From an uncultured Candidatus Saccharibacteria bacterium (GTDB lineage: Bacteria; Patescibacteriota; WWE3; 9FT-COMBO-53-11): a DNA stretch of 36,311 nucleotides. Location: the NCBI GenBank assembly GCA_964512075.1, contig CAZEID010000011.1, positions 1 through 36,311 of the forward strand. Direction: 5' to 3'. The notes under the pieces are model-generated. The model did no database searches. It was given only the letters and a program-made list of their open reading frames with translations, and was not told the DNA's origin. The position numbers and the translations under genes were made by a program. Positions 1,427-30,553 of this stretch are shown here, piece by piece. Position 1 is the first letter of the stretch. Every line of letters starts with the position of its first letter.

Positions 1427-1505
1427 TGGCGGTCCCGACCGGATTTGAACCGGCGATCTTCTCGTTGACAACGAGACGTGTTAGACCAGGCTACACCACG
1501 GGACC
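1427..1505 (-). tRNA. tRNA-Asp(GTC)
   Basis: Acceptor GGTCCCG/CGGGACC, arm TCTCG-TTGTCAA-CGAGA, G73-CCA. Confidence 0.95.
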
Positions 1506-12276: not shown

Positions 12277-12708
12277 GTGCCGATGACGATAAAGGAAGTT
12301 TGGGGTCGGCTCAAGATTAAGTTGGCAAGGGTTTCCCGGTCCCGAGAAGTTTCGAACTTGGGGAGTTACGGCGAAAAGTTGGCGAGCGAATTTCTTATGA
12401 AGAAAGGCTTCCGGCTGGTTGAAAAGAATTTTAGGACTCCCCGGTGGGGCGAGATTGATCTGGTGATGCGGGATGGGGACACGCTCGTTTTTGTGGAGGT
12501 TAAGACCCGGAGCGAATCCTCGGCGGTGGTCTACGGCGGTCCGTTAGGGGCAATCCACCCTCACAAGTTGGAAGCGCTAAAACGGGCGGCCCAGTTTTAC
12601 CTCTCTTCTAAAAAACTGGATCGGGAGGCGGCGCGGATCGACGCGGTTTCGGTGGTGATTTCCCCGGAGACGGAGCCGGCGATTGAACACTTTCTTAATA
12701 TCGCCTAG
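12277..12708 (+). CDS. yraN: YraN (UPF0102) family nuclease-fold protein
   Basis: G..GE, GEIDLV, LVFVEVKTR; follows rnhB. Confidence 0.92.
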   Translation: MPMTIKEVWGRLKIKLARVSRSREVSNLGSYGEKLASEFLMKKGFRLVEKNFRTPRWGEIDLVMRDGDTLVFVEVKTRSESSAVVYGGPLGAIHPHKLEALKRAAQFYLSSKKLDREAARIDAVSVVISPETEPAIEHFLNIA

Positions 12709-12722
12709 AATTAACCTTCGTC

Positions 12723-12731
12723 TGCTAAACT
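12723..12731 (+). promoter_or_regulatory. Extended -10 promoter upstream of the tRNA cluster
   Basis: TG-C-TAAACT ending 16 nt before the outer tRNA 5' end. Confidence 0.5.
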
Positions 12732-12786
12732 TATAAAAGGGATTTATGCCCCCGTAGCTTAGTGGGACGCGATCTTCTGCTCGCTA

Positions 12787-12824
12787 CTCTCGTCTGTCGA
12801 GAGCTAGGTCGCATAACGACCGTC
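12787..12824 (-). repeat. GAC-hairpin-TAG mini-element nested in antisense orientation inside the D-loop insertion
   Basis: Minus strand CGAGAG|GAC GGTCG-TTATG-CGACC TAG CTCTCG ACAGA CGAGAG|TA. Confidence 0.7.
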
Positions 12825-12875
12825 CTCTCGCAGAAGCGAGATAAAGTAGCGGCCTTGGATGTGATACCGCCGCGG

Positions 12876-12949
12876 GGGCCTGTAGCTTAGTGGTAAAGCA
12901 GCGGCCTTTTAAGCCGTTTACCAGGGTTCGATTCCCTGCAGGCCCACCA
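12876..12949 (+). tRNA. tRNA-Lys(TTT), nested inside the interrupted tRNA
   Basis: Acceptor GGGCCTG/CAGGCCC, arm GCGGC-CTTTTAA-GCCGT, CAGGG-TTCGATT-CCCTG, ACCA. Confidence 0.95.
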
Positions 12950-13048
12950 GTATCACTAATCTCGCCAAAGGCGAGATAAGCCGTTTACTAAGGAACACCG
13001 CAGGTGTGGTCGCGAGGAGCGACCGCTCAATTCCCTGCGGGGGTACCA

Positions 13049-13123
13049 GGCCCCGTCGTCTAGCGGTGCGGACACTGCCCCTTCAAGGCAGAAATACGGG
13101 TTCGACTCCCGTCGGGGCCACCA
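13049..13123 (+). tRNA. tRNA-Glu(TTC), with C at position 33
   Basis: Acceptor GGCCCCG/CGGGGCC, arm CTGCC-CCTTCAA-GGCAG, ACGGG-TTCGACT-CCCGT, ACCA. Confidence 0.9.
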
Positions 13124-13134
13124 AGACACTTGCG

Positions 13135-13293
13135 TTAGTTTAATTTTCCTAGTATTCTTGGAGAAACCTTTCTACGTAGTGCTTTTGCGATCTTAGAAAG
13201 TGTTTCAGTCGAAGGATTGCGCTCACCGCGCTCGATGTAGCCGATGCAAGCTCGATTGAGACCGGATTCCAGCGCGACTTGTTCTTGGGTCAT
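13135..13293 (-). CDS. XRE-family helix-turn-helix regulator, probably N-terminally truncated (52 aa; absent from the ORF track)
   Basis: MTQEQVALESGLNRACIGYIERGERNPSTETLSKIAKAL; the upstream in-frame GKKITAIRSERG is preceded by TAG with no start codon. Confidence 0.75.
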   Translation of the reverse strand: MTQEQVALESGLNRACIGYIERGERNPSTETLSKIAKALRRKVSPRILGKLN

Positions 13294-30470: not shown

Positions 30471-30493
30471 CAATAAGTACCGTTGCAGAGTGG

Positions 30494-30553
30494 GCGGGAG
30501 GACGCGATTTGTTCCAAACAAATCGCTAGCTTCCGCACGTGAGCGGGCGGGAG
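30494..30553 (+). repeat. GAC-hairpin-TAG mini-element at the 5' end of tRNA-Gly(GCC)
   Basis: GCGGGAG|GAC GCGATTTGTT-CCA-AACAAATCGC TAG CTTCCGC ACGTGAGCGG GCGGGAG|TAGC. Confidence 0.75.

What the first reader, a model, noticed from the sequence alone, without database searches (positions are those of the whole stretch)
12748..13048. A tRNA inside a tRNA: intact tRNA-Lys nested in the anticodon-loop insertion of a triply interrupted tRNA
Seen: an outer cloverleaf assembles from acceptor GCCCCCG/CGGGGGT-ACCA, D-stem GCTT/AAGT, anticodon stem GCGGC/GCCGT and T-stem TAAGG/CCCTG (one mismatch). It has insertions in the D-loop (~12766-12841), anticodon loop (~12858-12976) and T-arm (~12994-13025). 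The anticodon insert is GAT-GTGATAC-[8 nt + complete tRNA-Lys ending exactly at CCA]-GTATCAC-TAA-TCTCGC-CAAAG-GCGAGA. The joined loop reads CT-TGT-AA (Thr; fits the G^TA rule) or CT-TCT-AA (Arg; fits a GGATA D-loop). A candidate promoter precedes the outer 5' end and tRNA-Glu follows with no spacer. Inference: either a precursor that yields two tRNAs by an unknown splicing route, or a tRNA inactivated by mini-elements, one of which carries a tRNA. The wobble and mismatch changes hint at decay. The inserts are too short for group I/II introns.
Basis: partly seen in the sequence, partly recalled or inferred. Interest (0 to 1): 0.92.

Follow-up and report, generated by a model that had tools for sequence, protein, structure and literature searches.

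The report
Live tRNA inside a broken tRNA
A working lysine tRNA gene sits inside the anticodon loop of an older copy of itself that was cut up by small hairpin-shaped repeat elements, and the same gene-in-gene layout recurs at other RNA genes of this tiny-genome bacterium and its close relatives.

Summary
Positions 12748-13048 hold four collinear pieces of a tRNA "shell", split by insertions in the D-loop, anticodon loop and T-loop. An intact tRNA-Lys(UUU) lies at 12876-12949 and tRNA-Glu abuts at 13049.

The shell is a tRNA-Lys paralogue, not Thr or Arg: 61 of 73 bases match the inner gene. When its pieces are joined, ARAGORN does not call a tRNA.

The inserts belong to a lineage-specific, REP-like family of two-hairpin modules (GAC-hairpin-TAS-hairpin). 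They sit after a G, usually before TA, in either orientation and even inside one another. The genome encodes two RAYT-like Y1 transposases. It has no EndA, RtcB or reverse transcriptase hit.

The same nesting occurs at the 5S rRNA and a tRNA-Val of this genome, and at Lys, Val, Ala and Pro loci of sister genomes. Splicing into a second tRNA is therefore unlikely. "A tRNA broken by mini-elements, one carrying a tRNA" is supported.

Three things remain unexplained:
- The shell is far better conserved than synonymous sites.
- Its acceptor stem keeps pairing through two compensatory pair changes.
- The modules' second hairpin often copies the left flank, regenerating start codons or tRNA 5' ends.

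I rate it a new variant of a known kind.

The parts
12683..12729 (+). Likely promoter region of the whole array: TTGAAC-17-TAGAAT (12683-12711) and the conserved block GTCTGCTAAA (12720-12729).
   Evidence: Consensus scan. The block was found upstream of the locus in the window, L002, L004, L005 and L051. Promoter function is inferred.
12748..12765 (+). Shell piece 1: acceptor 5' strand GCCCCCG, TA, D-stem 5' GCTT, D-loop AGTGG.
   Evidence: 16 of 18 identical to the G008 shell.
12766..12841 (+). D-loop insertion. A two-hairpin module (GAC, GCGA..TCGC, TA|C, TCTCGC-agaa-GCGAGA) placed at agtgg|taaagt. It carries a second, inverted module in its linker.
   Evidence: The orthologous module in G008 has the identical second hairpin.
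12787..12824 (-). Inverted module nested in the D-loop insertion: GAC-GGTCG..GCGACC-TAG-CTCTCG..CGAGAG, flanked by g|ta on the minus strand.
12842..12857 (+). Shell piece 2: TAAAGT (D-loop end and D-stem 3'), A, anticodon stem 5' GCGGC, loop start CTTG.
   Evidence: 13 of 16 identical to G008.
12858..12875 (+). Left part of the anticodon-loop insertion: GAT, stem arm GTGATAC (12861-12867), 8-nt leader.
   Evidence: The arm covaries with its partner between genera: GTGATAC/GTATCAC here, GCGATGC/GCATCGC in genus g5.
12876..12949 (+). Live tRNA-Lys(UUU), with encoded CCA.
   Evidence: ARAGORN. Rfam 78.1 bits. 67 of 74 identical to the G008 gene.
12950..12976 (+). Right part of the anticodon-loop insertion: arm GTATCAC, TAA, second hairpin TCTCGC-caaag-GCGAGA.
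   Evidence: The same hairpin type closes insertion 1 of the outer 5S gene on contig C28.
12977..12993 (+). Shell piece 3: TAA, anticodon stem 3' GCCGT, variable loop TTAC, T-stem 5' TAAGG.
   Evidence: 14 of 17 identical to G008. TAAGG is shared by all five shell variants seen.
12994..13026 (+). T-loop insertion: hairpin AACACC-gca-GGTGT (12994-13007), hairpin GGTCGC-gagga-GCGACC (13008-13024), GC.
   Evidence: The first hairpin is the type that flanks the RAYT-like gene on C25 on both sides. 26 of 34 identical to G008.
13027..13048 (+). Shell piece 4: TCAATT (a 6-nt remnant of the T-loop), T-stem 3' CCCTG, acceptor 3' CGGGGGT, ACCA.
   Evidence: 19 of 22 identical to G008.
13049..13123 (+). 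tRNA-Glu(UUC), abutting the shell's CCA.

Best explanation
The interval is a former tRNA-Lys(UUU) gene, the 'shell', that no longer makes a tRNA.

It was split by four DNA-level insertions of a lineage-specific, REP-like family of small palindromic modules. The module pattern is 5'-GAC, hairpin 1, TAC/TAG/TAA, hairpin 2. Modules sit after a G and usually before TA, without a simple target duplication, in loops of the gene. The live tRNA-Lys(UUU) lies in the loop of hairpin 1 of the module that sits in the old anticodon loop.

Inferred expression route: one transcript starts at the conserved promoter upstream of 12748. RNase P cuts at 12876 and 13049. A 3' nuclease trims the inner tRNA to its encoded CCA. 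The shell pieces are by-products.

Inferred origin: a module with a tRNA in its hairpin loop (a cassette) was inserted into the resident gene. Insertions into a single-copy essential RNA gene survive only if an intact copy comes with them, which explains why the nesting is always self-in-self. Once the shell was dead, further modules entered its D- and T-loops.

Shown: the anatomy, the repeat family, its target preference, both orientations, nesting, recurrence at other genes and genomes, and the presence of Y1 (RAYT-like) genes.
Inferred: which enzyme moves the modules, how the cargo is acquired, and the processing route.
For: 1. Only the inner gene and Glu are called as tRNAs. The joined shell gives 0 genes in ARAGORN. 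It has a 6-nt T-loop remnant, a T-stem mismatch and a broken anticodon.

2. Module family:
- 18 of 19 curated modules from six genomes fold as two hairpins with a 3-nt head and a 3-nt linker.
- The hairpin-1 pattern GACGCGAT-N3-14-ATCGCTA occurs in 10 of 10 genomes of family f1 (1-23 copies each) and in 1 of 124 other genomes of the class. The reversed-pattern control gave 0 everywhere.

3. Target preference:
- The base before the insertion is G in 23 of 23 curated insertions and in 35 of 40 further modules.
- The following bases are TA in 13 of 23 and 11 of 40.
- The flanks of the D-loop insertion (agtgg|taaagt) and of 5S insertion 1 (ggtcg|taaaag) restore the uninterrupted sequence exactly.

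4. Orientation-independent, DNA-level behaviour: an inverted module lies inside the D-loop module (12787-12824) and another in the outer 5S gene.

5. The same architecture occurs elsewhere:
- 5S-in-5S on C28. The inner gene scores 66.7 bits; the outer pieces are collinear, one matching 25 of 26.
- tRNA-Val(cac) inside a Val-like shell on C13.
- A Tyr 5' shell on C19.
- Lys(ctt), Val, Ala and Pro loci in G004.
- Lys shells in G004, G008 and G009, and a remnant in G007.
- 4 of 45 tRNAs of this genome score 25 or more against their own upstream flank.

6. Enzymes:
- Two Y1_Tnp genes score above Pfam's cut-off. Their best NCBIfam match is 'REP-associated tyrosine transposase', below that model's cut-off.
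- Each is flanked on both sides by a small hairpin, and the C25 type also opens the T-loop insertion.
- RNase P RNA (79 bits over the full model length, below the gathering score of 100) and RNase III are present.

7. No EndA, RtcB or RVT_1 hit.

8. The shell decays unevenly in relatives. G004 lacks the 5' acceptor part. G007 keeps only a 5' remnant. Four other genera show a plain Lys-Glu locus.
Against: 1. The shell is not drifting neutrally. Between G000 and G008 the shell pieces are 62 of 73 identical (84.9%). That compares with 64 of 75 for tRNA-Glu and 67 of 74 for the live Lys. Third codon positions of the adjacent UPF0102 gene are only 59 of 123 identical (48.0%), or 41 of 74 within identical amino acids.

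2. Both complete shells keep 7 of 7 acceptor pairs, through two flipped pairs at 2:71 and 3:70. The stem flanking the inner tRNA also changed by two compensatory pairs.

3. No link is shown between the RAYT-like genes and the GAC-type modules. RAYT-like genes occur in 49 of 134 genomes of the class, whereas the module pattern is confined to family f1.

4. Copies differ greatly in stem and loop sequence, unlike a recently active transposon.

5. No empty-site polymorphism or excision product was seen.

6. How a gene gets into a hairpin loop is unexplained.

7. In 16 of 40 modules the 3' arm of hairpin 2 repeats the last 8 nt of the left flank (at least 7 of 8 bases), against 2.9% in mismatched pairs. 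A plain cut-and-paste model does not predict this.
Confidence: 0.6

Rival explanations
1. The shell and its hairpins are not junk. They have been kept, or co-opted, as a cis-acting processing scaffold. The tRNA-like shell and the leader-trailer stems would guide RNase P, RNase III or a 3' nuclease, so that tRNA-Lys and tRNA-Glu are released correctly from one transcript. The origin by insertion may be the same, but the present state is held by host-level selection.
For: - Shell pieces are 84.9% identical between genera, while third codon positions of the neighbouring gene are 48% identical.
- Two compensatory pair changes occur in the shell acceptor stem, and two in the stem flanking the inner tRNA.
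- The second hairpin of the D-loop module is identical in G000 and G008.
- The shell's CCA abuts tRNA-Glu, so an RNase P cut at 13049 defines its end.
- RNase P RNA and RNase III are present.
Against: - Four genera of the same family have a plain Lys-Glu locus.
- G007 has no 3' shell, and G004 has no 5' acceptor part. The complete shell is therefore dispensable.
- Inverted modules would give different RNA.
- Conservation could also come from recombination with the live copy, or from selection at the level of the element.
Confidence: 0.2
2. The three insertions are RNA introns of an unknown bacterial type. One precursor would yield the inner tRNA-Lys and, after splicing, a second tRNA from the shell.
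For: - Precise, loop-located interruptions at D-, anticodon- and T-loops, as in multi-intron archaeal tRNAs.
- An intact 7-bp acceptor stem plus ACCA.
- Conservation of the shell pieces.
Against: - No EndA or RtcB hit (genome 90.7% complete).
- The joined pieces are not called a tRNA. They have a 6-nt T-loop and an A-C mismatch in the T-stem.
- The junction gives UGU in G000 but UUG in G008, on a Lys body.
- Thr(tgt), Arg(tct), Lys(ttt) and Lys(ctt) all exist intact.
- Inverted modules lie inside the inserts.
- The same modules occur in spacers and at ORF starts, where no splicing is needed.
- Half-shells occur in sister species.
Confidence: 0.05
3. The partial tRNA copies are footprints of classical integrase-mediated integration of larger elements into tRNA genes, followed by deletion of those elements.
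For: - tRNA anticodon loops and T-loops are known crossover sites of tyrosine integrases (recalled).
- Many tRNA fragments lie beside live tRNAs in this genome.
Against: - No repeated core sequence at the two junctions (12857/12858 and 12976/12977).
- The two shell halves belong to one gene and enclose a complete, different copy. Integration with a shared core does not produce that.
- The inserts are 33-119 nt and are built from the repeat family.
Confidence: 0.05
4. Assembly artefact: repeats of tRNA-Lys were joined wrongly in a metagenome bin.
For: - The locus holds internal repeats.
- Public contigs break at 12875-12890, and none laid covers 12663-12875.
Against: - Contigs of two runs from two studies match 12880-13200 and 12889-13123 without a difference. 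They span the inner tRNA, the 3' shell and Glu.
- The same layout, with substitutions, occurs in a relative in run X5.
- It also occurs in G004, G008 and G009 and in three metagenome contigs from other assemblies.
Confidence: 0.02

Closest known systems
REP / REPIN elements with RAYT (REP-associated tyrosine transposase) genes; GTAG- and CGTC-tagged palindromes (PMC3733652, abstract and passages read)
   Same: - Short palindromes with short unpaired tags beside the stem. On the complementary strand, hairpin 1 reads GTAG/CTAG-stem-loop-stem-CGTC.
- Lineage-specific multi-copy families.
- Y1 HUH genes flanked by hairpins.
- That paper reports REPs lying inside other palindromes and inside genes.
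   Different: - Here the unit has two different hairpins in tandem, and the second often copies the left flank.
- Copies are few (1-23 per genome for the pattern counted) and very diverse.
- They sit inside tRNA and 5S rRNA genes, and some carry a whole RNA gene in a hairpin loop.
- The RAYT-like genes are flanked by another hairpin type, not by GAC modules.
IS200/IS605-family miniature derivatives (PATEs) and the single-strand 'peel and paste' mechanism (recalled)
   Same: - Hairpin-ended elements.
- Insertion next to a short fixed target without a classical duplication.
- Y1 transposase.
- A preference for single-stranded, folded DNA would explain hits in loops.
   Different: - The fixed part of the target is only G|T(A).
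- End sequences are not conserved between copies.
- There is a flank-derived hairpin.
- No IS with tnpA/tnpB ends of this type was found.
Archaeal multi-intron, split and tri-split tRNA genes (bulge-helix-bulge introns; Thermoproteales, Nanoarchaeum; recalled)
   Same: A tRNA interrupted in the D-, anticodon- and T-loops, with complementary sequences flanking the break in the anticodon loop.
   Different: - A bacterial genome with no EndA or RtcB hit.
- The anticodon is not restored.
- The inserts are members of a dispersed repeat family found in both orientations.
Intervening sequences of bacterial rRNA, and the insertions reported in rRNA genes of Candidate Phyla Radiation bacteria (recalled; PMC9297842 seen only in a search listing)
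   Same: Extra stem-loops inside stable-RNA genes of a CPR-type genome. RNase III is present.
   Different: Here the interrupted copy is accompanied by an intact copy nested inside it. tRNAs are affected. The inserts are a mobile-looking family.
Rickettsia palindromic elements inserted in genes (recalled; mentioned in PMC3733652)
   Same: Small palindromic repeats tolerated inside genes of a reduced genome.
   Different: RPEs are kept in frame within proteins. Here the hit RNA gene is replaced by a nested copy, or the disrupted 5' end is regenerated.

Membership tests
Functional bacterial tRNA gene (the outer shell) | A continuous cloverleaf recognised by tRNA finders, at least after removal of the inserts. 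| tested here: not met
   ARAGORN and Rfam call only 12876-12949 and 13049-13123. The joined pieces give 0 genes, also at a relaxed threshold.
Functional bacterial tRNA gene (the outer shell) | A 7-nt anticodon loop with an anticodon kept among orthologues, a 7-nt T-loop and a paired T-stem. | tested here: not met
   The junction is CTTG|TAA in G000 and CTTT|GAA in G008. The T-loop remnant is TCAATT (6 nt). The T-stem has an A-C mismatch.
Functional bacterial tRNA gene (the outer shell) | A 7-bp acceptor stem, a discriminator base and CCA. | tested here: met
   7 of 7 pairs (one G-T) plus ACCA in G000 and G008.
Archaeal-type (BHB) tRNA introns / split tRNAs | Splicing endonuclease EndA and ligase RtcB encoded in the genome. 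| tested here: not met
   PF01974 and PF01139 gave 0 matches in G000 (90.7% complete). The controls rang in 4 and 10 of 14 genomes.
Archaeal-type (BHB) tRNA introns / split tRNAs | A bulge-helix-bulge motif at both exon-intron junctions. | not tested
   Not modelled formally. No obvious 4-bp helix between junctions was seen on reading.
Group I intron in a bacterial tRNA gene | A catalytic core of roughly 200 nt or more, recognisable by the Rfam model. | tested here: not met
   The inserts are 76, 119 (45 without the tRNA) and 33 nt. A permissive Rfam scan of 12650-13150 listed 8 matches, none to an intron family.
REP/REPIN-RAYT system | Short palindromes with a conserved unpaired tag (GTAG or CGTC) beside the stem. 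| tested here: met
   Hairpin 1 is preceded by GAC (AAC or GGC in 3 of 23) and followed by TAC/TAG/TAA/TAT. That reads STAG...CGTC on the other strand. The family definition is from PMC3733652.
REP/REPIN-RAYT system | A multi-copy, lineage-specific family. | tested here: met
   10 of 10 genomes of family f1, 1 of 124 outside, 1-23 copies each, control 0.
REP/REPIN-RAYT system | A RAYT gene flanked by the very repeats it would move. | tested here: inconclusive
   Both Y1 genes are flanked by hairpins (AACACC..GGTGT and TAACC..GGTTA types). The first type opens the T-loop insertion. GAC-type modules do not flank them. The NCBIfam RAYT model scores 46.7 and 52.3 bits, below its cut-off of 80.
REP/REPIN-RAYT system | Demonstrated mobility (new copies, empty sites). 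| not testable with these tools
   Only indirect evidence: differing numbers of layers and modules among congeneric genomes.
IS200/IS605-type miniature element | Insertion 3' of a fixed tetra- or pentanucleotide without duplication; similar hairpins at both ends. | tested here: inconclusive
   Only G at position -1 is fixed (23 of 23; 35 of 40). The two hairpins differ. A copy of the left flank appears in hairpin 2 in 16 of 40 modules.
Integrase footprints in tRNA genes | A shared core (att) sequence repeated at both junctions. | tested here: not met
   No repeat at 12857/12858 versus 12976/12977. The flanks join to a single loop.

The most novel reading that the evidence does not exclude
A 'self-healing' insertion system in WWE3-type CPR bacteria.

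A REP-like two-hairpin element inserts into single-stranded loops after G. As part of the insertion, it re-creates the sequence it displaced:
- a few bases at ORF starts, where the start codon is regenerated;
- the 5' acceptor strand of tRNA-Gly;
- in the extreme case, a whole tRNA or 5S rRNA gene placed in a hairpin loop.

Essential single-copy RNA genes would then be serially replaced from within, leaving onion-like shells. The shells stay conserved because their tRNA-like fold is part of what the element or the processing machinery recognises.
Probability: 0.3. Interest if true: 0.85.

Novelty: new variant of a known kind. Interest (0 to 1): 0.68.

Why it matters
If the reading holds, it has four consequences.

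- Tiny, streamlined CPR genomes tolerate palindromic mobile DNA inside essential, single-copy RNA genes, because an intact copy, or the displaced 5' end, comes with the insertion.
- It offers a new route of gene turnover, in which live genes become shells around their replacements.
- It explains why tRNA and 5S finders can miss or miscount genes in such genomes.
- It provides a natural system for studying how Y1/HUH enzymes and folded single-stranded DNA choose targets.

The unexpectedly strong conservation of the shell also raises a testable question. Do tRNA-like relics serve as processing handles in bacteria with a reduced set of RNases?

Tried and rejected
Approaches that led nowhere:
- A generic scan for 'GAY + hairpin + TA/TG-N + hairpin' with G-T pairs allowed was not enriched: 38 hits against 28-43 in ten shuffles. 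Only the GACGC-type hits were real, so I used a specific pattern instead.
- blastn-short of all tRNAs against the genome missed the Lys shell, because its pieces are too short. A local-alignment test of each tRNA against its own flanks worked better.
- I tried to build a covariance model of the module. MAFFT put half of the sequences out of register and could not align hairpin 2. No model was built and no structure-aware census across genomes was made.
- Pattern scans of public collections for the shell's T-arm junction gave 3 relevant of 7 stretches (genome contigs) and 3 relevant of 61 (metagenome contigs). All six come from genus g5, so they did not widen the sample.

Sequencing runs:
- No RNA holder was listed, so nothing can be said on expression.
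- Parts of the stretch without contig cover (12663-12875) say nothing either way.

Ideas rejected:
- Retro-copying of a pre-tRNA: no RVT_1 hit.
- Integrase footprints: no repeated core.
- Tandem triplication with two deletions: the two shell halves pair with each other but differ from the inner gene's acceptor stem.
- Thr or Arg identity of the shell.

Literature:
- Five searches found no description of a tRNA nested in a tRNA, or a 5S in a 5S, in bacteria, nor of REP-like modules in CPR tRNA genes.
- This covers only the held library. Supplements were not consulted.
- Only PMC3733652 was read (outline, abstract and passages). All other listed papers were seen as search listings only.
- These works are recalled and were not read: Brown 2015 (CPR rRNA insertions), Ton-Hoang 2012, the IS608 mechanism, Williams 2002, Randau 2005, Fujishima 2009, Ogata 2000.

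Full report
**What is there**

The window is contig C11 of a 515-kb, 34-contig genome, 90.7% complete. Related loci carry record titles naming Patescibacteria and candidate division WWE3. ARAGORN and Rfam each find ten tRNAs in the window. These include tRNA-Lys(ttt) at 12876-12949 and tRNA-Glu(ttc) at 13049-13123.

Around the Lys gene, the sequence read contains four collinear pieces of a second cloverleaf: 12748-12765, 12842-12857, 12977-12993 and 13027-13048. Insertions of 76, 119 and 33 nt lie in the D-loop, the anticodon loop and the T-loop.

**What the shell is**

Joined in a script, the pieces make 73 nt. They match the inner tRNA-Lys at 61 of 73 positions. The next best of the 45 tRNAs are Arg(gcg) 56, Arg(tct) 55, Lys(ctt) 54 and Thr(tgt) 50. 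So the shell is a tRNA-Lys(UUU) paralogue.

ARAGORN does not call the joined sequence a tRNA. Its T-loop remnant has six bases, its T-stem has an A-C mismatch, and the loop reads CTTG|TAA. Thr(tgt), Arg(tct) and Lys(ctt) exist elsewhere in the genome.

**What the inserts are**

They are members of a repeat family. Its unit is GAC, hairpin 1 (often GCGAT..ATCGC), a TAC/TAG/TAA linker, and hairpin 2.
- 18 of 19 curated copies from six genomes fold in exactly this shape.
- The D-loop insert is one such module. It carries a second module, in inverted orientation, in its linker (12787-12824).
- The anticodon-loop insert is a module whose hairpin 1 (GTGATAC/GTATCAC) holds 8 nt plus the whole live tRNA in its loop.
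- The T-loop insert begins with the hairpin AACACC-gca-GGTGT. That type flanks one of the genome's two RAYT-like genes on both sides.

In 23 of 23 curated insertions the preceding base is G, and in 13 of 23 the next two bases are TA. In 40 further copies fetched from four relatives, G precedes in 35 and TA follows in 11. Where the uninterrupted sequence is known, the flanks rejoin exactly and nothing is duplicated (agtgg|taaagt in the D-loop; ggtcg|taaaag in 5S).

The hairpin-1 pattern GACGCGAT-N3-14-ATCGCTA occurs in all 10 genomes of the family and in 1 of 124 other genomes of the class. The reversed control gave none.

On the complementary strand, hairpin 1 carries GTAG/CTAG at one end and CGTC at the other. 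These are the tags that define the two REP super-families in PMC3733652. That paper also reports REPs lying within other palindromes and inside genes.

**The layout is not unique to this locus**

- On contig C28, downstream of 23S rRNA, an intact 5S rRNA gene (66.7 bits) lies inside hairpin 1 of a module. That module interrupts an outer 5S gene, which carries two further modules, one of them inverted.
- tRNA-Val(cac) on C13 lies between the halves of a Val-like shell whose acceptor strands, GGGTCCG and CGGACCC, pair.
- tRNA-Tyr on C19 is preceded by a 5' shell with modules in its D-loop and anticodon loop.
- In the window itself, a module sits just upstream of tRNA-Gly(gcc) (30501-30553). The 3' arm of its hairpin 2 supplies the tRNA's first seven bases, and the same nine bases stand to the left of the module.
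- In genus g5, G008 has three layers at the Lys locus. G009 has the same 3' layout as here. G004 is a mosaic without the 5' acceptor part. G007 keeps only a 5' remnant.
- Four other genera have a plain Lys-Glu locus.
- G004 also has shells with D-loop modules at Ala, Val and Pro loci. Its tRNA-Lys(ctt) is nested between the same arms (CTTTGCAGG/CCTGCAAAGG) that flank the innermost Lys(ttt) of G008.

**Is it an assembly artefact?**

Contigs of two runs from two studies match 12880-13200 and 12889-13123 without a difference; one of those runs may be the source sample. A relative in a third run has the same 3' layout with 28 differences. Independent assemblies of relatives show the full layout. 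Positions 12663-12875 had no contig cover. That is no evidence either way.

**Splicing or relic?**

Against splicing:
- The genome has no hit to EndA, RtcB or RVT_1.
- Modules occur in both orientations.
- The junction in the anticodon differs between genera (UGU-like here, UUG-like in G008).
- The same modules lie in spacers and at ORF starts.
- Sister species keep half-shells.

For a DNA-level mobile origin:
- The target preference, the nesting and the lineage-specific family described above.
- Two Y1 HUH genes score above Pfam's cut-off. Their best NCBIfam match is the REP-associated tyrosine transposase, below that model's cut-off. Both show HUH-like (HFHLLV) and YIHLNP motifs in the translations.

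RNase P RNA (79 bits over the full model length, below the gathering score) and RNase III are present. Release of the inner tRNA and of Glu from one transcript is therefore plausible, but it is inferred.

**What does not fit a simple relic**

First, conservation. Between G000 and G008 the shell pieces are 62 of 73 identical. tRNA-Glu is 64 of 75, the live Lys 67 of 74 and the T-loop module 26 of 34. Third codon positions of the adjacent UPF0102 gene are only 59 of 123 identical. Even within genus g5, third positions within identical residues are 67 of 96 identical.

Second, pairing. Both complete shells keep all seven acceptor pairs although two pairs are flipped. The stem flanking the inner tRNA also changed by two compensatory pairs. 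Host-level selection (a processing scaffold), selection on the element, or repeated recombination with the live copy could each explain this. I could not separate them.

Third, the flank copy. In 16 of 40 modules the 3' arm of hairpin 2 repeats the last eight bases of the left flank (at least 7 of 8), against 2.9% for mismatched pairs. In several cases this regenerates the start codon of the downstream ORF, for example ATGAAAG before an L36-like ORF. At tRNA-Gly it regenerates the 5' acceptor strand. This suggests that insertion is coupled to re-synthesis of the displaced left flank. The nested genes may be the extreme of the same process. That is inference.

**Verdict**

The splicing reading is unlikely. 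The reading 'broken by mini-elements, one carrying a tRNA' is supported, and it extends to a family-wide phenomenon.

The thing works like REP/RAYT or IS200/IS605-type miniature elements. It differs from them in its two-hairpin, flank-copying unit, in its presence inside tRNA and 5S genes, and in self-in-self gene nesting. In five literature searches I found no description of this. I rate it a new variant of a known kind, with interest 0.68.

Noticed in passing
G000 contig C28:22269-22691 (minus strand; locus L013:10270-10692): 5S rRNA nested in 5S rRNA. The intact gene (C28:22480-22597) sits in hairpin 1 of a module. That module interrupts an outer 5S gene, which has two more modules, one of them inverted. 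A further copy of the 3' end (taggtcattgccgggacg) lies downstream.
   Followed up: yes
window 30488-30553: A module lies directly upstream of tRNA-Gly(gcc). The last seven bases of its second hairpin are the tRNA's 5' acceptor strand, and the same nine bases (gggcgggag) stand to the left of the module.
   Followed up: partly
G000 contig C13:43490-43765 (locus L105): tRNA-Val(cac) is flanked by TCGCAA/TTGCGA arms, CTA and a hairpin. It lies inside a Val-like shell whose acceptor strands GGGTCCG and CGGACCC-ACCA pair. A further 5' remnant lies upstream.
   Followed up: partly
G000 contig C19:3771-3916 (locus L096): A 5' shell of tRNA-Tyr, with modules in the D-loop and at ctg|taga in the anticodon loop, lies upstream of the intact tRNA-Tyr. 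Another module sits 9 nt upstream of tRNA-Thr(tgt).
   Followed up: partly
G000 C25:3980-4660 and C12:10890-11585 (loci L014, L015): Two paralogous RAYT-like Y1 transposase genes in a 515-kb genome. Each is flanked on both sides by a small hairpin (GGTAACACCcgaaaGGTGTAA; TTAACCtcgaaGGTTA). Relatives of the protein occur in 49 of 134 genomes of the class, with up to 8 matches in one genome.
   Followed up: partly
loci L131, L134, L137, L145, L150, L154 (G004, G007): Modules are inserted at or just after start codons. The second hairpin's 3' arm repeats the left flank and so regenerates ATG, or ATGAAAG, in front of an open frame.
   Followed up: partly
loci L162-L165 (G004): tRNA-Lys(ctt) is nested between the same arms as Lys(ttt) of G008. 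The Ala, Val and Pro tRNAs are preceded by 5' shells that carry a module at agtgg| in the D-loop.
   Followed up: partly
G000 C28:18239-18371 (L013:6240-6372, minus): The Rfam tmRNA match (61 bits) spans model positions 1-374 in only 133 nt. ARAGORN finds no tmRNA in the genome. The tmRNA gene may be unusual or interrupted.
   Followed up: no
G000 whole genome; C20:25656-25729: No tRNA-Trp, Thr(ggt) or Leu(caa) was found among the 45 tRNAs of the 90.7% complete genome. One odd tRNA-like gene has an undetermined anticodon (33.6 bits).
   Followed up: no
window 1427-1505 (minus): tRNA-Asp(gtc) is 79 nt long, with the anticodon at position 37, so its D-region is unusually long.
   Followed up: no
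G006 locus L022:1500-1720 (minus) and G001 L019, G004 L018: The 3' end of 5S rRNA (tagg/taag...gccgg) is repeated one to two times downstream of the intact gene. Each copy starts exactly at the g|ta site used by a module in G000.
   Followed up: partly
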